DNA of 64,000 nucleotides, from positions 40,734,001 to 40,798,000 of the forward strand of contig OZ024743.1 of the NCBI GenBank assembly GCA_964016885.1. The letters run 5' to 3'. Positions 2,730 to 63,029 of the stretch are shown piece after piece (within the stretch, counting starts at the first letter, position 1; the number at the start of each line of letters is the position of its first letter). The notes beneath the pieces were generated by a model. It worked only from the letters and a program-made list of their open reading frames with translations, searched no databases and was not told the DNA's origin. A program made the translations under genes and the position numbers. The stretch is from Eledone cirrhosa. Taxonomy: Eukaryota.

Positions 2730-4215
<1,486 letters not shown>

Positions 4216-4351
4216 ATATATATATACATATATATATATAGTAATAATAATAAATTTGAAGACTAAAATCCAAAGAGGGCTCGATAAGGATAAATATATA
4301 TCAAATATATAAGAACCGTAGAGCAAAAAATAAATATATATATATTTATTG

Positions 4352-4684
4352 TTGAGGATGGCTCTGAACATTAATTAGTATACACTGAGGAAGAAAAACT
4401 CAGAGCTGTATGGGAGCATCCCAAAAGTCAGCTCAAAAGTGACACAGAGGAGACTGAGGTTAGCTGGACATGCTCACCGACAACCAGAGTTGACATTGCA
4501 CTCAGTGCTCCTTTGGGAGCCCCTACATGGACACACTAGAAGAGGAAGACCAAGGTTAACGTATGTTGATGCCCTAAGGACAGACACTGGTCTGTTGGAG
4601 ACGCAGGACATGGCAGCGATAATGAGGGACAGAGACCGCTGGAGAGAACTCGTCCATGGATCTCGGGAATTTTACCCTACTTAG
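4352..4684 (+). mobile_element. 5'-truncated RTE LINE 3' end, same family as 58791-60338
   Basis: TQRRLRLAGHAHRQPELTLHSVLLWEPLHGHTRRGRPRLTYVDALRTDTG; near-identical to 60007-60338; the stop codon is followed almost immediately by (TA)n. Confidence 0.9.
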
Positions 4685-12154: not shown

Positions 12155-12200
<46 letters not shown>

Positions 12201-12205
<5 letters not shown>

Positions 12206-12647
12206 GATATTAATAAATGGAAACTATATTTATAAAACCATATTTATTTCATTATATATATTTCAAGGATACCAAGTTACATTATGGTATGCCTTCATCA
12301 GACAAAATACAATATATAACAGTTTTATAAATAGACATTCACGTACCCCTTTTAAAAATTGACCGTTGTTTTTGGAGGCCATCATGATACAAAACAACGG
12401 TCAATTTTTAAAGGGGTACGTCAATGTCTCTTTATAAAACTGTTATATATTGTATTTTGTCTGATGAAGGCATACCATAATGTAACTTGGTATCCTTGAA
12501 ATATATATAATGAAATAAATATGGTTTTATAAATATAGTTTCCATTTATTAATATCGTATATCTAATCCAAATATTTGTCGAGTGCTTTATATCAGTTAT
12601 AAAAATATTTGCTTGTTTTATCCCAACAATTTAAATAAAACTTTTGC
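12201..12647. mobile_element. Family A fold-back cassette: about 170-bp inverted arms, 18-nt loop, two hammerheads (12245-12309 minus; 12453-12517 plus) and a 3' tail
   Basis: Arms almost perfectly complementary; tattttgt-CTGATGA-aggcatacca...tggtatcctt-GAAA-tatata-TA-atgaaata; TA tracts on both sides. Confidence 0.9.
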
Positions 12648-12719
12648 ATATATATATATATATATTTATATATATATGTAGATAAATCTATCAAAATATA
12701 CGTTAGTGTCCAATCCGTA

Positions 12720-13960
12720 TGAAGAACTCAATGTAATCCAAATATCATGAAAAGAGAAGATTCATTCAAAAATTTTCGATAAAAATCATAGCAAAACAGA
12801 GTCAAGATAAATTAATAAAAACAATGATTTAATACCCACGAACATAGTTTTAAAAATGCCGCATTAGCTAATACAACATCCTTGGCTGAAACAATTAATA
12901 ATTATAGAAAGAAGAATATCGATTACAACCTGACCTGGAGCGTGCTCAAAAGGGCCACCCCTTATCGAAATAACCATACGAGTGTAGGTTATGCTCCCAG
13001 GAACTTTTTGAAATAAGCGACAGGAATTAATTATATCTTGCAATCATAGAATTAGAAGAACCTTCAAATATTATAAACCTAATTAATAAACACCTTACTC
13101 TTATATTTTACATATTATTATAATTATTTTTTTAAAATTTACTTAACTTATAATTAGTATTTTACTACAGAGAACTTCATAATTTTGTTTCCCTCTTACA
13201 GCTCTCTTTTCCTAAAATTAATACCTAAAAGTATACCTATAAATTCATTTAATTTCCTGTTATGAATCTAGATTCCTTGTAGTTTATATAAGATTGGTAT
13301 TTCTCACATCTACCCTTATCCCAAAATTTTACTTTCCTTCGTTTTTAACAACACTCTTTAATAACATCTAATTCTTATTTATCATATTCATATGAATTAA
13401 TATAAATGTATCCCTATAAGTATACCTATCAATTAATTTATTGTTATAGCTCTAGATTCCTTGTGGTTTAAATAAGATTGGTATTTCTCACTAATACCCT
13501 TACCCTAAAATGTTATTTCCCTTCGTTTTTAACATTAGTCTTTAATAACATCAAATTGTCGCCTCTTTTCATCTCCGAAGTATTCTTTTCATTCAAAGTA
13601 TTCTTTTCCTTCAAAACATCAGTCTGCAATCCTCTACCCCTAAATTAAATTTCTACTACCACTATTCTATCAACTTGACCTCTAACTACTGTTCTATTGG
13701 TTAATTCAAAACCTGTTCCCAAACAGACCTTTTATATTAAATCTTTGTTTGTGTTTTTCAATAAACAAATCTCATCATTTCTGAAGACAGCATGCATATG
13801 TGAAGGTATGTATATTTCCTCTGATAATTTGTAATATGTTTACATAGATCTATATGATATACATACCAACACACATAAACATTCTAGAAACGATCGTAAA
13901 ATGATGAATTTTTTAATATATGGAACTTGTATTTTGTTTTTATTTCATTTTTTTTATTAA
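12720..13960 (+). mobile_element. Decayed Penelope-like element 3' end: GIY-YIG C-terminal remnant, 3' UTR and hammerhead
   Basis: HSFKNAALANTTSLAETINNYRKKNIDYNLTWSVLKRATPYRNNH..CRLC..ELFEI..SCNHR matches the PLE endonuclease tail pattern; UTR has an internal tandem duplication (13222-13373 / 13411-13557). Confidence 0.7.
13772..13907 (+). ncRNA. Type I hammerhead ribozyme with extended stem II (about 100 nt)
   Basis: tcatcattt-CTGAAGA-[long stem II]-GAAA-cgatcg-TA-aaatgatga; perfect 9-bp stem I and palindromic stem III. Confidence 0.8.
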
Positions 13961-15408
13961 TTTATATATATATATATATTTCAGTTTATACCTGTATAAA
14001 TACAGAATGTGGAACTAAGACTTCACCAAAATATATAAATATATACAACGTATACAGGAATCTCATTTTTCAGCATTGACCCTCAAACAGTACTGGCATG
14101 CAAACATGCTAAAAGATAAAAAAAGAATCCCCGTAAATTGGAATATATGATAAACACCAATTTTGGAATCTAATTTGACCTTCAGCCGAAGGTGTGTGTA
14201 TGATTCAATGAACCACATTTCATCATATTTTAATTTATAGGGAAAATTCGTATACATTGGCAATACGTTTTGAGTACTTTCACCAATGAAAGATAAAAAC
14301 ATATTGTAACAACCCTGTCTGATATTCACAAAACATATCGGCAACTATATTCATGGAGGAAAATAGAGTAAAAAATATTTTTGCTTCGTTTCGTTGCGAA
14401 AATATATTCTTCTTCGTCATAGAGGCTACTCATATATTTATTATACATAAACGTAATATATATGTTCATATATGCTTTCATATACACATCTATTATGCTT
14501 AAACGGAGTCTTAGTCATACCACCAGAAGACTGGTATATAATCCTATCAACTACTTGGAATCATATATAACCACATGCTCTTAGAATTATTTAGAAATGG
14601 ACACAGTAATTTGCATATAATTAACGCTTGTGTTAGTAATTAATATATATGGTAAGATAATTCCTTAAGATATATATCTAATATGTAGGCAGGTAAACCT
14701 ACCAGATAATCCGAATTTCCCTATAAATATAAAACATAATATTTGAGATTCATACACATTGGTATAGTATAGATCTCACACTCTGTATTTAAAGAGAGAT
14801 AAATTCATCAAACAGTTCGGCTGGTGGCATACTTCTTAATGTATATCTTAATTAATTACAGCACGAGCAATAATTATGTAAAAATAGTATATCCATTTCA
14901 GTATAACACTAAGAGAGAATGTTTGTACATATCCATCAAATATATGTTTCGTTAGATGATGAGGCCCCAAAAAGATCCCAAAATCTATAAAATGTTTATC
15001 GTCTTTTCAATTTACAGGTAACTTCGTATGTCGTGGCATATTTACATGCCTAAATATTAGATATATGTATATACTTATATACATTGATGCAGTCTCGATT
15101 ACTACACTGTATTTGTACAAATGTAACTTTATAATACACATTAATATACATACAAACGTATGCAAATAGACACTCACTCACACGCACACACACGCACACG
15201 CACACACATACACACACACACCCGCACACACATACACATACACAAACATACGTACATACATACACACACACATACTCATGTTTATGAATCGGCACTAAAA
15301 TTCTTTAGTCTGTCTGTCACCAGAAACCACCTAATTGTTGTGTGTTCAACTTGTCTGTTAAATATATCTGAAAGTCATCAAGTACACAGAAAGAGAGAGA
15401 GGGAGAGA

Positions 15409-19440: not shown

Positions 19441-19442
<2 letters not shown>

Positions 19443-19950
19443 AACAATTAAGTTAAAAATGTACATCCACATATGTATACTGAAATACTAGTATGCATAT
19501 GAATACACACACGTATACATATGTAGATGTACCGAGTTTTTCACTGGTCACTTTACTGTGAGTGTCCAGCTATTCTGTATGTAAACACACAGACAAACCG
19601 GTTTTTAAAGTCATACTGGTTTTTGAGGAAACACCTTTCCTCTATTCTCCAGAAAGCTAGAAAGGCCGGAAGATAGGTAAATGTTGCTGATGAGTTGTAA
19701 CAACAACGAAACTAGTTCAATATTCCTTGTCTGGCTTTCTGGAGAATAGAGGAAAGGTGTTTCCTCAAAAACCAGTATGACTCTAAAAACCGGTTTGTCT
19801 GTGTGTTTACATACAGAATAGCTGGACACTCACAGTAAAGTGACCAGTGAAAAACTCGGTACATCTACATATGTATACGTGTGTGTATTCATATGCATAC
19901 TAGTATTTCAGTATACATATGTGGATGTACATTTTTAACTTAATTGTTTA
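19441..19950. repeat. Fold-back with about 220-bp near-identical arms and a 68-nt loop
   Basis: taaacaattaagttaaaaatgtacatcc... is the reverse complement of ...ggatgtacatttttaacttaattgttta. Confidence 0.92.
19681..19723 (+). ncRNA. Minimal type I hammerhead ribozyme with intact core, in the loop of the 19441-19950 hairpin
   Basis: atgttg-CTGATGA-gttg-taacaa-caac-GAAA-ctag-TT-caatat. Confidence 0.88.
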
Positions 19951-48907: not shown

Positions 48908-49129
48908 TAAGGCAATTATTTCATTTACCAGTGGTTTCTTGAAAGTAAACACATTTTGCTTTCAATCATCAGAATGAAAAAATCCTGGCGTATTTATTGA
49001 CATTGGATTTTAAAAAGGTTTTTAAAATCCAATGTCAATAAATACACCAGGATTTTTTTCATTCTGATGATTGAAAGCAAAGTTTGTTTGCTTTCAAGAA
49101 CCCACTAACAAATGAAATAATTGCCTTAT
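48908..49129. mobile_element. Fold-back cassette with two hammerheads: intact on the minus strand at 48919-48979, mutated on the plus strand at 49057-49117
   Basis: Minus strand: tttcatt-CTGATGA-ttgaaagcaaa..tttactttcaa-GAAA-ccactgg-TA-aatgaaa; apex ttttaaaaaggtttttaaaa. Confidence 0.88.
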
Positions 49130-51106: not shown

Positions 51107-52065
51107 GTTACCGCGTGTAAACAGAGAATGCATAGTACATATTTTACCTTCAAACCCCCTCACGTCAAGACACAGGTGGATAGACAACGGCTGTATCTCT
51201 TTCCTATTTGCAAATTAAGATACATGACACCCCCACCCATACTTAGGTGGAAATAGAATTGTTTCTTTTTTCTTCATTAGTTACACACTCTAATTACACT
51301 TAGGTATATCTTTGCATATCTACACTATTATAATCAATTTCTAATCTTCCTAAGGTTAACCCGGCACATTTTCACTCTTGTTAAATATACATAGAATCGG
51401 CCGAACACATAACCATGATTTGTTTGGGGTGGGTGGGTGTATCATTATAAAAGAAACTACTAGTAAATTACTGTATTGCGGTGCTCTTCTAGTGCTTTAG
51501 AGTAACTGATAACGACATTTTATTTATTAGAAATTTCATTAGTATTAATATCTATACGCTTACTGTAGCTAAGTGTTAAACTTGACATACTTACTTTTCA
51601 CTCTAACAACCTTCCTTACCTCTCATATGCTGGATTTACTTTCTTACCCCCATTAGAGATAGTTGTAAAGATTTTCTCTCTTAACGCCTGAAGGGCTGGA
51701 CACCCACAGGTCGGAATATCATCTTACTCCCTTACCTTTGTTCTACAGGCCATTTCAGTTCCTCCCCCCGTCGCTATAAAGGGATTTAACCACGTTTATG
51801 ACAACCCCAAATCATTGACCACTCCCAGTGACAGACAAGAAAAACCACAAATTCTTAGATTTGTTTGATTTGATACTTCTGCCTTTTTTTTTTTTATTAA
51901 CTGTATGCCCATATATAAACTGTACCCCTTGATAAGTTCAGCAAGGTCCTAGCCGTCCTCATACTGCTGGGTTAGTTCGGATCTAGCGGCTGAAACGACC
52001 GAAAACTGATTATTTTCCTGTATATATATATTTATTTATATATATATTTATTTATATATATATAC

Positions 52066-53055
52066 TTATTAGCAAGACATACCCGTTCCAAAGACCCTCA
52101 TGTATAGATAAGAAATGTATAACCTGTAAAATAAGCCCCCATATTAACTGTAAAACTAGAAATGTAGTGTATAGCATAAGATGTACGGAAGGACAATGTA
52201 GAAACAAAAAAATATAGTGTACATAGGTGAGACAGCTCGTAGTATAGGGGAACGAATAAATGAACACTGGCGAGACCTTCAAGATAATAAAGAATCATCT
52301 GTGCTCTACCAACATGCTAAGATAGAACACAGGGGTAGATTAGAGAACATAGAAATAAAAATAGAATCCACACACAGAAGAGATGCAATGTTTAGGCAAA
52401 TTACAGAGGCAGTAAGCATAAAATAATTACAACCAAAATTAAATAGAAAATATGAGTGGAACAGCAACATCACAACTTACAATTAAGGACAAAATGAAAA
52501 CACACACAGGACAGAATGAAAACACACACACACATAGAACAAACAACTTACAATTAAGGACAAAATGAAAACACACACAGGACAAAATGAAAACACACAC
52601 ACACATAGAACAAACAACCAACCAACAATAAATAAATAAATAAATAAACAAATAGATAAATGAACACAAACACACACAGACACCCGGACGTGGCGCATGC
52701 GCAAACCGAGCACACAACACACACACAGAAACAAAATGGCGTAGGATAGAAGAAAGGAAAGGCACAGAAACAAAGAAAGGAATCCCCAGTCACTGAAGAG
52801 GTCACAGAGTGTGTGACGAAAGGACTATGACTATATATAAACAACTATCTGGTTGTGGAACCAACCAACCAACCAGAAATGTTTAAGTTTGTAGATTTGT
52901 AAATTTATAAATTTATAAATATATAATAAATTGAAGTGAAAGTAACTGGTGCGTGTGTTTCTTATTGGCAACATGACCCTCCCAGAGTATAACAATATCG
53001 GTTTCAACACACGATTTCAGATAAAGAATCTTGCTAAACAAATTCAGAAACGAGA
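52066..53055 (+). mobile_element. 5'-truncated Penelope-like element: Cys-rich linker, GIY-YIG endonuclease pseudogene, 3' UTR and pLTR (family B)
   Basis: CIDKKCITCK..NCKTRNVVYSIRC / VYIGETARSIGERINEH...RQITEAVSIK*LQPKLNRKYEW; one frameshift and one stop; TA-rich flanks. Confidence 0.9.
52788..52832 (+). ncRNA. Hammerhead ribozyme in the PLE pLTR (family B)
   Basis: agtca-CTGAAGA-g-gtcaca-gagtg-tgtgac-GAAA-ggac-TA-tgact. Confidence 0.75.
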
Positions 53056-53056
53056 T

Positions 53057-53117
<61 letters not shown>

Positions 53118-56569: not shown

Positions 56570-58465
56570 TTTTCAGACGTTTGCCGTCTCCCTTTGCACC
56601 TCCATCAACTGTCACCAACTCCAAACGTACTTCATTGCCTCTTAGGTGACTTTTAAGTCCAGCATAAGATTTGCACGGTCTGCAGCATATGAGACAGACA
56701 GAAGATGTGCCCTCTATTGGATTGATTCGATCAGTTTGTGGGATGTCATCCTTATGTACACTCATATGCATTTTCAGACCAGAGATTGATTTGTAGATAT
56801 TTTGCACACCACAAATGTTTAGCTTTAGGTCAAAGATCCTTCCCGTAGTTCTAACTGACAATAGAACACCCTTTGGACATTCCTGAAAGGCATGATGTGG
56901 CATCACAGCAAAATATATAAAAAAAGTGTGTGAGCCGAGATATCTCCCTGCTTCCCGCCATTGTCAACTGGGATTTCATTGGACAATTCTCTATTCAAGA
57001 CAACCCGAGACTTCATATATCTCTGCAGTTGGTGGGCACCCCATTTTCCATGATATTTTCTACAGTGGACCTCTGTTCACCGTACCAAAGGCCTTTGTCA
57101 GATCAACAAAAAACCTGATACAGAGGAACCCACTGTTCAATACAATTCTCCTGTCTCTGCCTTGCAGGGAAGATCATATCAATTGTCCCTCTACCAGATT
57201 TAAATCCACTTTGTGATTCAAGGATTAGTGTAGGACAAATGTCTTCCATCAACTTGTTCAACAATAATCTAGCAAGATCTTTGTATACAGACTCCAACTG
57301 AGTGATGCCACGGTAGTGATCGCATATTCCTTTATACCCTTTACCTTTAAACAAGGTCACCAAGATACCATCTATCCAATCTTGTGGCATACGAACTCCA
57401 GCCCAGCACTCTGCGATGAGATGGAGTATTGTTTGTGTTATGTTCGTATTACCAACCTTTAACAATTCCACAGGGATTCCATCTGATCCAAATGACTTAC
57501 CCGTGTTTAACTGGTTGATGGCCATTTTAACCTCATTATAATCTGGTAATCGAACCATTTTAAAATTTACAAAGACATTGGGGCATGCCATCTAGCACAT
57601 CATGATTAACAGATGATGGATTATGAAATAAATCAGTAAAATTTCTTGCCAGCGCTTAAGGATATTCTATGATTCCTTGATGATGGCACTGTCATCTTTG
57701 GACATTATGGGAACAATAGACGAATTTGTTGGACCATATACTGCGCGCAAAAGACTATAAAACAGTTTGGAATCTTTTGAGTTATAACCACTTTGAATAT
57801 CTTCAGAGATTTTCAAACACCATTTATTTTTAAACCTTCTCAGCTCGCGTTGTAATGTGGCTTCATATTATTTATATGTCTTTTTAATAGTAGTTAAATT
57901 CGTAGGGCACTCTTCCAGAATCTTTTCATGAAGAGCATGTTTTTTTCTTTAATAGTTAGTTGATAACCAGATTATTGTCATGCAATACGTCTTTATGTTG
58001 TCTTTTCGACCTGAATCCAAGTTCTTCTGCTCCTGCATTATACAACTGATCCGTGAAGTTTAACCACGTTCCAACGAAATCAATATTATTCAAACGTTTA
58101 CCCAAAGCATCACGTACCTCTTGTTTTAACTTTCCAACACCAATAAGCTTCAGTGTTTTTATTTCACACGTACGAGATTTTTTTTCCGAATACATAATGT
58201 AATCTTCCCCCAAATGATGTTATGTTCCGTGTTGCATTCTGCATTAAAGATGACGCACACATTAGAGATATCATTTTACCTTGGGTGTACCTAGATAACT
58301 TTATGCTTCTTCTTTTGGGGGAAGAATGTATTGCAAATTGGTAGGTTGAGTTCCGAACAGAGCTCAAGCAGCTTCAAACCGTGCAATAATCAAACCGTCA
58401 AACCGATGCAATAATGGCCTAGTGCATCCCGTGTGTCAGGGTCTCTGTCAACTTGGGCATTGAAA
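56570..58465 (-). mobile_element. Decayed RTE (BovB-like) LINE: APE end, RT N-terminal half, internal deletion, C-terminal C2H2 fingers
   Basis: FNAQV..LKLLELCSELNL..CNTFF; GKSFGSDGIPVELLK..YRGITQL..ESQSGFKSGRGTIDMIF; CLICCRPCKSYAGLKSHLR. Confidence 0.9.
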
Positions 58466-58488
58466 TAAGACACACACACATACACACC

Positions 58489-58521
<33 letters not shown>

Positions 58522-58790
58522 GTGTGTGTATATATGGCAACATGACCCTCCTAAAGTATAACAATATATATATATATATTGTTATATATTGTTATATATA
58601 TATATATATATACATCTGACGTAAGTATACATGCCAGAACACATATTTGAGTAGCTCTTGAATCCAGAGTCTGGTACGAACATTATTCGAACGTTCCACA
58701 AGCTGATCGGCAGTGAAACATATGTAATATGTAATTAAATATGTATATTATGTAATATTGATTCTTTGTTAACTATTATATATATATAAT

Positions 58791-60338
58791 AGCACTGGGG
58801 AGATCAGGCGGCTGTTTGAGACAGAGCCCTTCACCAGAGAGGAGCTTCAGAGAGCCAAGAAGAGGATCAAGGAGGGCAAGGCTCATGGAGAAGATGGAGT
58901 GGCATTAGAGGTGATGAAGAGGTGTGATTTTGATGATATCATCCTGGGGTTCTGTAACGGGGCACTGGAGAAAGGAGTTTCCCGAATCAGTGGAGGATCA
59001 GTAACATCGTCCCAGTGCCAAAGAAGGGAGATCTCTCTAACACCAACAACTACCGGGGGATCTCACTGACGTCACTTGTGGCAAAAACCCCCAACAGGAT
59101 GATTCTTAACAGGATCCAGCCTTGATGGAGAAGAAGCTCAGGGACAACCAGAACGGCTTCAGAGAGGGTAGATTAACAACCAGTCACATCTTGATGCTGA
59201 GGAGGATATTAGAGGGAGCTAGAGCAAAGTGCCTTCCTGCGGTTATGGTTTTCATTGACTTTAGGAAGGCCTTTGATTCTGTGGACCGTTACTGCCTGAT
59301 GAAGATGTTACAGGCTTATGGAATCCCCAAGAAGATAGTGGACCTGATATCACTGCTCTACACCAACACCAAAGCCAAAGTCATTACACCTGATGGGATG
59401 ACAGAGTTCTTTGAGATACTGGCTGGAGTGCTCCAGGGAGATACATTGGCTCCCTACCTTTTTATCATCGTAGTGGACTATTGTATGCGCCTTGCACTGG
59501 AGAAACACCAGGACTCTGGCTTTACTGTAGCACCGGCTCAGAGCAGGGGAGTTAGGGCGAAAAAGGTATCGGATGCTGATTTTGCCGACGACATAGTTTT
59601 GGTGACAAATACAGTGAAGGAGGCAGAGGATTTGATGCGGGAGGTTGAGACTGTGTCGATGAGTGTGGGGCTGAGAATGAATGAGACTAAAACAAAATAT
59701 CTGGTGGAGAATGTTGAGAAGCCAGAGGGGATCACTAATGTAGGCGGGAGGCCGCTGGAATTGGTTGAGGACTTCCTGTATTTGGGAGCAAAGTTGGGAA
59801 TACGGAAGATGATGTGGTTGAGAGGAAGAGCAAGGCCTGGGCGGCGTGCCACAGCTTGAGATCGGTGTGGAAGTCGGACCTTCGTAGAGTCCTGAAAATT
59901 CGCCTCTTCATTGCTGTAGTGGAGTCTGTGCTGCTGTATGGGTCTGAGACTTGGACACTGACCAAGAAACTCACTCAGTTGGTGGATGGGTGCTACACGA
60001 GAATGCTGAGGATGGCTCTGAACATTAATCAGTATACACTGAGGATGAAAAACTCAGAGCTGTATGGGAGCATCCCAAAAGTCAGCTCAAAAGTGACACA
60101 GAGGAGACTGAGGTTAGCTGGACATGCTCACCGACATCCAGAGTTGACATTGCACTCAGTACTCCTTTGGGAGCCCCTACATGGACACACTAGAAGTGGA
60201 AGACCGAGGTTAACGTATGTTGATGCCCTAAGGACAGACACTGGTCTTTTGGAGATGCAGGACATGGCAGCGATAATGAGGGACAGAGACCGCTGGTGAG
60301 AACTCGTCCATGGATCTCGGGAATTTTACCCGCCTTAG
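58791..60338 (+). mobile_element. 5'-truncated, relatively young RTE LINE with complete RT domain and about 3 frameshifts
   Basis: PVPKKGDLS..NYRGISL, NQNGFR, FIDFRKAFDSV, GVLQGDTLAPYLF, DFADDIVL, ESVLLYGSETW, RLRLAGH; ends directly in (AT)n. Confidence 0.95.
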
Positions 60339-60359
60339 ATATATATATATATATATAGG

Positions 60360-62222
60360 AATGTAAAATGGCGTGTTGTGTTGTTGCATATGTGATATAC
60401 AAATTAAAATGAAGAATTAGAAATAGAAGCCAGGACTATCCAGCATTGGTATTTCTTCGCCTTATAGACCAGATACCTCAAGCTAGCGCGAACAATAACT
60501 AAAATAAGTTAATGGGATAAAAAGAATTGGGTGCAGTAAGAGAGACAGGTAAACAAACACGAATGGTGAGGCAACGTAAAGAGAGGAAAAACTGAGAAAA
60601 TCAAGTCAATAATTCATTTGAACATAAGAACTAGCGAATATTGACGAGAAGACGAAAGACACATCTTAACCGTGCGAAAGTAAGCGAGGAAAGAATTTCG
60701 CACGGTGTGGGGCGATGGGGGGAGTGAGAGAGAGGGTGAGTAGCACTGCAACATCACAGCACGACATTTTTCATTTCTATATGCTTTCCCCTTCGCTGTG
60801 ACCTTTCTTTTTCTCCTCCCTTACTGCTATCCTCTTTCTCTCTCCCCCTTCTCTCTTCTTCTCCCTCTTACTTTCCTTCACCCCCTCTGCTAGTCACCTT
60901 CTCTCGGCTAGCCCCTTCTACACTCTTTCACTCACTCACTCTCTGTTACTCACCCTCTCTCTCACTTCCTCCATCGTCCCACACCGTGCGAAATCCTTTG
61001 TGCATTCCGGAGGCTGAGTGTGTATATGTGGGGATACGCTCATGTGTGTTTGTGTTTATACGTGGTGTAGAAGTAGGTGGCGTGGTTCGAAAAAAATGTG
61101 AGTGTTTGTTCGTGGGTAAGTTCTCTAAGGTAGTTCCGTGGAGTGTGCGATAAGATGTTTGATATTTCTCATGTTATAGAGTGGATAGCTGGAACGATGA
61201 CCGAGGGTGTGGAATCCATTAGTGGTGGTGGTCGGAAGTGGAGAGGTGTGGGGTGCGCGCACAACAGGAAGTGGTCAGAGGGTCAAGGCAGGGTGAAGAG
61301 ATAGCAGTAGAGGAGGATGACAGGTGGAGAAATAGTCTGTATGTGATGAGGACTGTGTGTCTGTGTGTGTGGAGGTGCGGTGGACAGGGGAGAGGATGGG
61401 TAGGTGTGAAAGGTGGAGGGGGAAGGTAGTGATGTGGGGGGATGGGGTGTATATTAGTAGAGGTGTTAGTGGGATGTGTGTGAAGGGGTGTAGTGGAGCG
61501 GGGAGAGGGAGAGAAAAGGTGTTGGGGACGGATGAGGGAGTGTAGTGTACTGGTGTGTGTGCGTGTTTGGATGAGTGTGTGTGTGCGTGCGTGTTTGCAT
61601 GAGTATGTGTGTGGTAGAGTTAGTATTACTGGTGGTGGGGAAAGGGTTGAATGCGGGTGTGTTGGTGGGGGTTAGTGGGGTTGGGTGTGTGAAGTGGGTG
61701 GTGTACGTAGGTGTGCGTGGGTGTAAGCGTGTTGGTTGTATGGGTGCGCGGATGTTAGGGGGAGTGGTGGGGATATTAGTATTGTTAGTTGGGGGTGGGT
61801 CGGCCAAGGGGGCGGGACGGTGAAATGAATGTGTGTTTTAGTGGTGTTAGTGGGGGATGTGTGGGGGGAAAGGTGGGTGGTCTAAGGCTAAAGGAATTGG
61901 AGGGGGAGTTCAGGCCGGGCGGTGTGTGGGTCTGTAGCGTGAAGTTGGTATGTTGTTCAATCGTGACGCGGGTGGCGGGTGTTCCATGACATTGGAGTAG
62001 GCCACAGACTGTGAGGTGGTGGGCGAAATGTCCAGGGGAGCCAAAGTGGTGGGCGATGGGGAAACTGTCGCAGAGACGAATATCCTGGAGGTGTTCAGTG
62101 AAACGGTCCGCCAGGCAACGTCCAGTCTGTCCGACGTAGGTTGCGCTGCACTCCGTGCAGCTAAGTCCATAGATTAGGTTGCGAAGTTTGCGCAATCTCC
62201 GCACCCTCCTCGTCAAAACATG
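60360..62222 (-). mobile_element. 5'-truncated Penelope-like element: GIY-YIG domain (about 62222-61905) and a long C/A-rich 3' region
   Basis: RNLIYGLSCTECSATYVGQTGRCLADRFTEH...PIAHHF...EQHTNFTLQTHTPPGLN; 3' boundary inferred. Confidence 0.8.
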
Positions 62223-63029
62223 TGAGGATAGTGTGGCAGTCACTTCGAAGTTTCATATATTGTTTATTTTGATATGATATATATTTTTGTATGTTCGCAG
62301 ATATAAATAGAACGAAAAGGATAATATATACAAAAGATATGATCATGTCGAATGTTACGTGATACAATCAAATACAAATAGACAGGACATATACATATAT
62401 TTCAAGTTGTCTATCTAAATATTTATCTATCTATCTCTATTGGTATGTATATATGAATCTATCTATCTATCTATCTAACTCCGTCTCTATATATACATAC
62501 ACGCACCCACACCTAAACAAACACACATACACACACACACACACAGATATACATATATATATAACACCAACAGACACACGCATATATATATATGTACACT
62601 CGCACACTTAATCTTTACACAAACGCACGCGTGTGTGTTCTTTTTTCTGTCCGAAAGTGAATAAGAAGCAATTGATATTTAACGAGCGGTCGTTGTGTTC
62701 AATCGAAATTGACCTCTCAATGCACCATTTTCTTGCCTATCTTACCATTACATAAATAGACCAATGAGAAAATAGACGCACGCAACATATTTTCATGAGA
62801 AATGACACTTTTATGCATATTATTTTCTCTTCCGTCTAACGCCATGCTATTTTTTACCTGAAGGATAATATTTGTCGATACATGTGTTCGTCTCTGTCTC
62901 TGTTTCTCCCCCATCCTCTCTCTCTTACTCTCTCTCTTTCTTTCTCAGTCTCTCTCTCTAAATGTATATATATATGTATGTGTCTGTGTGTGTGTGTGTT
63001 TGTTCGTGTAGATGAATATGTATATATAT

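What the first reader, a model, noticed from the sequence alone, without database searches (positions are those of the whole stretch)
52066..53055. Direct physical link between a hammerhead cassette family and a Penelope GIY-YIG ORF
The family B sequence found without an ORF at 2885-4215 (and a scrap at 58535-58565) is here the 3' end of a GIY-YIG endonuclease remnant, with a roughly 75-bp tandem repeat in the UTR. This points to a PLE as the parent and likely mobiliser. 12720-13960 gives a second such link.
Basis: partly seen in the sequence, partly recalled or inferred. Interest (0 to 1): 0.7.

Follow-up and report, generated by a model that had tools for sequence, protein, structure and literature searches.

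The report
Penelope retrotransposon end carrying its hammerhead
This is the cut-short, broken end of a very young and abundant Penelope-like jumping gene, and the 'hammerhead cassette' is simply that element's own end repeat, a known layout; the family adds an unusually long insert in its copying enzyme and mirror-image insertions that stop at two fixed points, likely the two places where copying starts.

Summary
The link is real, and the kind is known. 52064-53058 is a 5'-truncated, dead copy of a young Penelope-like element (PLE). All 29 other loci picked by the GIY-YIG piece carry 'family B' downstream. Other copies hold a 1,216-aa RT+GIY-YIG ORF that starts inside family B, so family B is the pLTR, not a separate cassette. 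Its minimal type I hammerhead matches 24,520 genomic sites (control 0) and shows compensatory stem changes; cleavage is untested. ORF-less copies (2885-4220) are scattered 5' truncations of a sister subfamily. The tandem repeat is 71 bp. 12680-13970 is an unrelated family with no intact hammerhead found. Extras: copies end at two ATAT sites inside (AT)n targets, and 36 of 36 head-to-head pairs have one end of each. The RT carries about 70 extra residues at telomerase's IFD position in 116 of 121 aligned proteins. This scan noted the insert, and two fixed ends, before on other DNA of this genome.

The parts
52021..52063 (.). (TA)n-rich target, left side; the element's 5' truncation point joins it directly
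   Evidence: comparison with the longer copy L033
52064..52486 (+). 5'-truncated end of the PLE ORF: linker CX4CxxC zinc-finger motif and GIY-YIG endonuclease; broken by two extra A in the A run near 52206-52212 and a premature stop at 52424-52426
   Evidence: about 99% identical to the best other copies
52472..52618 (+). 71-bp tandem repeat, 2.1 copies, starting in the last codons; 1-3 units in other copies
52487..52998 (+). region between ORF copies = pLTR ('family B'), up to the short 3' end
   Evidence: in L033 and L038 the same sequence lies in front of the long ORF
52788..52832 (+). minimal type I hammerhead: stem I 5 bp, CUGAAGA, extra G, stem II 6 bp, GAAA, stem III 2 bp with GA loop; predicted cut after A52827 (CUA)
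   Evidence: activity not tested
52973..53058 (+). start codon and first 28 codons of the next ORF copy; short end at 52998, 60-nt tail, long end at 53058; both ends read AATAT followed by CG in the element
   Evidence: (ATG position)
53059..53112 (.). (AT)n target, right side
2885..4220 (.). ORF-less insertions of the sister subfamily in (AT)n: one solo arm and two head-to-head pairs, three hammerhead copies
58536..58567 (+). about 32-nt insertion of the extreme short 3' end inside (AT)n
12680..13970 (+). unrelated PLE-like remnant (Hydra-like endonuclease tail plus its own ~940-bp repeat); not family B

Best explanation
52064-53058 is a dead, 5'-truncated copy of a young autonomous Penelope-like retrotransposon whose own pLTR is 'family B', and it was likely made when the element's RT-endonuclease nicked an (AT)n repeat and copied an uncut element RNA from a fixed internal start. 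Shown: the unit is ORF + ~490 nt, repeated head to tail (units of 4.26-4.42 kb); the ORF starts inside the pLTR; copies end 26 or 86 nt into the ORF at the only two ATAT words of its first 300 nt, and run into (AT)n; 5' ends are scattered; the two arms of a head-to-head insertion have one end of each kind and near-identical sequence. Inferred: the protein nicks both strands of (TA)n; each nick primes reverse transcription at one of the two sites, helped by 4-5 nt of pairing between target and RNA; both cDNAs stop early and are joined head to head; where only one arm lands, a copy like this one results. The hammerhead is predicted to be weak alone (2-bp stem III) and to need a second copy or the protein. 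It does not define either end of the insertions, so it likely acts in RNA processing, not in integration.
For: Linkage 29 of 29. 1,216-aa ORF from the pLTR ATG in L033, and many ORFs over 1,200 aa among 150 scored RT matches at 98-100%. Pfam RVT_1 and GIY-YIG, both below cut-off. Model pLDDT 93; best matches are telomerase RTs (Z 10.8, rmsd 4.0, 384 aligned) and the I-TevI catalytic domain on residues 679-776 (Z 10.1, rmsd 2.1, 88 aligned). 30 hammerhead-picked sites: 5' ends 1 to over 1,500 nt upstream, 10 clearly inside the ORF, 4 at its end, 16 scattered in the pLTR. 132 3' ends: 63 short, 58 long, 8 other, 3 run on; 111 of 121 run into (AT)n; 36 of 36 pairs are long+short. Units in one array, opposite arms included, differ by 0-2 per 1,500 nt (18 pairs) against a median of 4 (0-11, 135 pairs) between arrays. 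Stem II 99% paired with two double changes; the named structure beats all slid controls. Same layout and two internal RT starts in PMC11167929 and PMC3846280.
Against: Nothing was assayed. The double changes in the stems come mainly from one diverged subfamily (cells are not events), outer stem I pairs are often broken (76.5% paired), and the count of pairs with a double change does not beat the shuffles (330 of 500). The single-strand fold does not give the exact hammerhead pairing for stems I and III. The ATAT overlap at the ends could reflect where ends are tolerated rather than priming; PAc initiates at a site without homology to the target. Longer TATATA runs in the pLTR are rarely used as ends, so pairing alone does not pick the site. 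One long+long pair was seen in the third subfamily (L099); its flanks look duplicated. Most loci were best hits, not a random sample.
Confidence: 0.88

Rival explanations
1. Same element, but the template is a unit-length circle: hammerheads in successive pLTRs cut the transcript, the unit is ligated, and the RT starts at +26 or +86 and rolls across the ligated hammerhead, giving tandem units (the model proposed in PMC4209133).
For: Arrays of 2-3 or more units per arm with 0-2 differences per 1,500 nt, both arms alike; hammerhead core kept across subfamilies whose proteins are 64% identical.
Against: A read-through transcript of a tandem source gives the same DNA pattern. In PAc, hammerhead mutants still insert and no reads ended at the cut site. 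No RNA evidence here.
Confidence: 0.25
2. Family B is a separate non-autonomous hammerhead element (retrozyme or SINE-like) that is mobilised by the PLE and here sits next to an endonuclease remnant.
For: 16 of 30 hammerhead-picked copies hold no ORF sequence; animal retrozymes derive from pLTRs (10.64898/2026.07.22.740005).
Against: Family B contains the ORF's start codon and flanks full ORFs; 5' ends are scattered, not fixed; no tandem array of short hammerhead units was seen; the sister subfamily has its own endonuclease.
Confidence: 0.06
3. Two independent insertions into one microsatellite happen to be adjacent.
For: (AT)n runs here do collect unrelated repeats (another repeat family ends at about 52015).
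Against: No (AT)n between the endonuclease and family B; the same junction in 29 of 29 other loci.
Confidence: 0.01

Closest known systems
Canonical C-terminal EN+ Penelope-like elements with min-HHR in the pLTR (PMC4209133; PMC3846280)
   Same: Single RT+GIY-YIG ORF, tandem and inverted pLTRs, ORF start inside the pLTR, optional tail on one inverted arm, type I min-HHR with an extra base before stem II, most genomic motifs solo and truncated.
   Different: Tail is 60 nt (about 44 in the third subfamily) and was on exactly one arm in 36 of 36 pairs; loop III is GGAC or GAAC, not a perfect palindrome; RT has a long insert between motifs 3 and 4.
Nematis clade (Figs S1, S2, S7 of PMC8557442, read as text)
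   Same: CX4CxxC linker with a short spacer to the Cys before GIY (7 residues in 91 of 113 relatives); short endonuclease end; DKxG and YxLxKxHK-like motifs.
   Different: Motif-3 Asp to motif-4 Gly is 129-135 residues here against about 63 that I counted for the C. remanei Nematis row; motif 4 reads GG(A/P)IG instead of GxAMG. No joint tree was built.
Neptune clade
   Same: Linker zinc-finger motif, (TA)n targeting attributed to it (PMC8557442).
   Different: Neptune rows have a spacer of about 25-30 residues after CxxC and no RT insert (about 60 residues from motif 3 to 4).
PAc Poseidon element of Anolis (PMC11167929)
   Same: Two internal RT start sites that bound the tail; AT-rich targets; both strands extended.
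   Different: PAc starts at sites not homologous to the target, and its HHR overlaps the start codon; here both ends share ATAT with the target and the HHR lies about 180 nt upstream of the ATG.
Animal non-LTR retrozymes (10.64898/2026.07.22.740005)
   Same: Type I hammerhead of pLTR origin, many ORF-less copies.
   Different: No short tandem hammerhead units and no fixed boundaries here; the copies are truncations of the coding element.

Membership tests
EN+ Penelope-like element | single ORF with telomerase-like RT and C-terminal GIY-YIG endonuclease | tested here: met
   L033 ORF; fold matches to TERT and I-TevI
EN+ Penelope-like element | CCHH motif in the endonuclease | tested here: met
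   C687, a second Cys, H714/H730, R710, E761, N773 in the alignment of 40; the second Cys aligns loosely
EN+ Penelope-like element | pLTRs from tandem or partial-tandem copies, inverted 5'-truncated arm, optional tail | tested here: met
EN+ Penelope-like element | type I minimal hammerhead in the pLTR | tested here: met
   motif and pairing
EN+ Penelope-like element | self-cleavage of the hammerhead | not testable with these tools
   needs an in vitro assay or RNA reads
EN+ Penelope-like element | intron in the 5' region, as in some PLEs | not tested
   no RNA data
Nematis clade | CX2-5CxxC linker with short spacer before GIY | tested here: met
   against Fig S2 text
Nematis clade | no insertion between RT motifs 3 and 4 | tested here: not met
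   129-135 residues in 116 of 121 rows against about 63 counted by hand
Nematis clade | grouping in an RT tree with named Nematis sequences | not tested
Neptune clade | long spacer (about 25-30 residues) between CxxC and the Cys before GIY | tested here: not met
   5-11 residues in 113 of 113 scorable rows (reference rows)
Naiad/Chlamys | N-terminal endonuclease | tested here: not met
   endonuclease is C-terminal
Telomerase-type IFD | insert at the IFD position with the same fold | tested here: inconclusive
   position and length match; insert is confident in the whole model but the stand-alone model was poor (pLDDT 54) and was not searched
Non-LTR retrozyme | short non-coding tandem units with fixed ends, each with a hammerhead | tested here: not met
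   scattered 5' ends; tandem units are 4.3-kb coding units

The most novel reading that the evidence does not exclude
This family represents an unnamed, widespread clade of C-terminal-endonuclease PLEs with a telomerase-length fingers insert. One RNP nicks both strands of (TA)n and launches two reverse transcriptions on the same RNA, always one at each of two ATAT sites 60 nt apart, primed by pairing with the target, possibly on a hammerhead-made circle. With tens of thousands of near-identical copies it would be the clearest genomic record of the PLE integration step.
Probability: 0.3. Interest if true: 0.68.

Novelty: new variant of a known kind. Interest (0 to 1): 0.4.

Why it matters
The link itself is textbook, and showing that is the main result. 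What may matter: how PLEs build head-to-head insertions and what their hammerheads do are open questions. This family is very young, has many long open ORFs, a simple target, and a strict one-long-one-short rule, so it gives sharp predictions for an in vitro test. The RT insert breaks the published statement that canonical C-terminal-EN PLEs lack an IFD, which bears on how PLE and telomerase RTs are related.

Tried and rejected
Rfam gave no family-B hit among the 150 rows shown of 220; only a different window hammerhead at 19669-19740 appeared (HH9, 36 bits, below gathering score). The repeat finder was swamped by microsatellites. A genome search with 52715-52880 returned nothing although the motif is abundant (that search skips very common words). 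No RNA holder was listed; no reads were laid, so expression, cleavage, circles and presence in other species stay open. Sequence searches of solved structures gave only weak hits. The full-length protein gave no Pfam hit; the RT-EN part gave two below cut-off. The stand-alone model of the RT insert was too poor to search. No clade tree was built, so the Nematis-like call rests on motif comparison by eye. Rejected: separate cassette family, chance adjacency, Neptune and Naiad membership, the 12720 locus as family B. Four literature searches showed no paper on a C-terminal-EN PLE with such an insert; Repbase, subscription papers and the preprint's supplements could not be seen and may hold this lineage.

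Full report
Observation. The remnant is broken by two extra A and a premature stop relative to another copy. Family B also matches 2887-4220 and a scrap near 58536-58567 at 81-92%. The repeat in the UTR has a 71-bp period and 1-3 units in other copies.

Linkage. The genome is about 3.0 Gb; the closest named protein is from Octopus vulgaris at 67% identity, so the host is likely an octopod (inference). The endonuclease piece had 1,597 first-look candidates; 40 were scored, 30 fetched, and all 29 other than the window are followed by family B. Longer stretches show the whole element: a 1,216-aa ORF whose ATG lies inside family B (window equivalent 52973), in tandem or head-to-head layouts. Among 150 scored RT matches at 98-100% identity many frames exceed 1,200 aa, and tandem units are spaced 4.26-4.42 kb. 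The RT-EN part hits Pfam RVT_1 and GIY-YIG below cut-off. Its model (pLDDT 93) is closest to telomerase RTs, and its last domain to I-TevI. Family B is therefore the pLTR of an autonomous PLE.

ORF-less copies. A search with the 2885 copy returned a sister subfamily; 11 of 28 loci outside the window have its own endonuclease (83-91% identical) directly upstream of a family-B arm. Thirty sites picked by the hammerhead alone have 5' ends from 1 to over 1,500 nt upstream of the core: 10 clearly in the ORF, 4 near its stop, 16 scattered in the pLTR. This is a continuum of 5' truncation, not a cassette with fixed ends.

Hammerhead. The motif is a type I minimal hammerhead with an extra base before stem II and a 2-bp stem III, predicted to cut after CUA at 52827. 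This is the form described for metazoan PLEs in PMC4209133 (parts 1-2 of 4 read), which also reports most motifs as solo and probably truncated, and low activity in vitro. A family pattern matches 24,520 sites, the reversed control none. Across 17 distinct rows stem II is 99% paired with two double changes, and the structure beats all slid controls; stem I is weaker (76.5%), and the double changes come mainly from one diverged subfamily. Activity was not tested.

Ends. Of 132 distinct 3' ends in loci of the two closer subfamilies and the hammerhead-picked set, 63 lie about 26 nt and 58 about 86 nt into the ORF, 8 elsewhere, 3 run on; 111 of the 121 run into (AT)n (loci L071-L115 were left out of this count). 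The two points are the only ATAT words in the first 300 nt of the ORF. All 36 head-to-head pairs with both ends classed have one long and one short end. A stricter earlier count that included the third subfamily gave 8 long+short and 1 long+long among 9 classed pairs of 15; the exception has duplicated-looking flanks. The third subfamily (64% protein identity) keeps the short end and has a shorter tail. Units within an array, opposite arms included, differ by 0-2 per 1,500 nt against a median of 4 between arrays, so one template sequence serves a whole insertion, and the family is very young. PMC3846280 (passages) describes the tail as optional on one inverted pLTR. PMC11167929 (main text read) shows for PAc two internal RT starts bounding the tail, extension of both strands, a protein-assisted hammerhead not needed for insertion, and initiation at a site not homologous to the target. 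The shared ATAT here differs from that last point.

Mechanism. Shown: layout, end points, target, truncation. Inferred: nicking of both strands of (TA)n, two primings at the two sites with 4-5 nt of pairing, early stops and head-to-head joining. The window copy is a single arm with the long end. Because inserted copies run through the hammerhead, the template is either uncut RNA (preferred, by analogy with PAc) or a ligated circle (rival, 0.25).

Clade. The linker has CX4CxxC and a 7-residue spacer, like the Nematis rows and unlike the Neptune rows in Fig S2 of PMC8557442 (passages, section 12 and supplement parts 1, 54, 57 read as text). The distance from the motif-3 Asp to the motif-4 Gly is 129-135 in 116 of 121 rows. 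By my hand count in Fig S1 it is about 61 in Penelope, 60 in Neptune, 63 in Nematis, 84 in a Naiad and about 118 in human TERT (start of the TERT row assumed). That paper states that canonical PLEs lack the IFD. I saw the insert before consulting earlier notes; one note (e1-9508900) reports it from another piece of this genome and says it folds unlike the telomerase IFD, which I could not test. No tree was built.

Second link. 12680-13970 is another family: an endonuclease tail resembling the Hydra-clade row in Fig S2 followed by its own repeat in 23 of 24 other loci, with only a degenerate core-like motif.

Verdict. Real, well supported, and of a known kind. PLEs are already listed as recently active in O. 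vulgaris (PMC13282606, passages), and pLTR origin of hammerhead repeats is the subject of 10.64898/2026.07.22.740005 (part 1 of 5 and passages). The RT insert and the strict end rule lift it to a variant worth a modest score.

Noticed in passing
window 19441-19950: 221-nt near-perfect inverted arms with a different hammerhead between them (core at 19687; Rfam HH9 36 bits).
   Followed up: no
window 12200-12650 and 2560-2730: Another hammerhead-like repeat family (CTGATGAAG...GAAA), palindromic at 12200-12650; not linked to the 12680 remnant in most other loci.
   Followed up: partly
window 48930-49110: Head-to-head pair of a further hammerhead-like motif with a long stem II (cores at 48972 minus and 49064 plus).
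   Followed up: no
window 51650-52015: Older dispersed repeat (886 candidates, 78-86% identity) ending in the same (TA)n run as this element.
   Followed up: partly
window 61785-62252 (minus): A separate GIY-YIG open frame of 155 aa (Pfam E=0.011), likely another PLE family.
   Followed up: no
window 12680-12826: This piece appears to be an inverted copy of what follows the repeat's 3' end in other loci, i.e. a 5' inversion.
   Followed up: partly
window 57103-60299 and 4379-4684: RT fragments of non-LTR (RTE-like, by recall) elements.
   Followed up: no
L033 ORF, residues about 240-420: Asn/Thr/His-rich low-complexity stretch of variable length before the RT, reminiscent of the N-rich inserts of rotifer PLEs.
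   Followed up: no
L031 6360-8001: Third subfamily (64% protein identity, 995 candidates) inserted tail to tail in the same (AT)n run as a main-family copy.
   Followed up: partly
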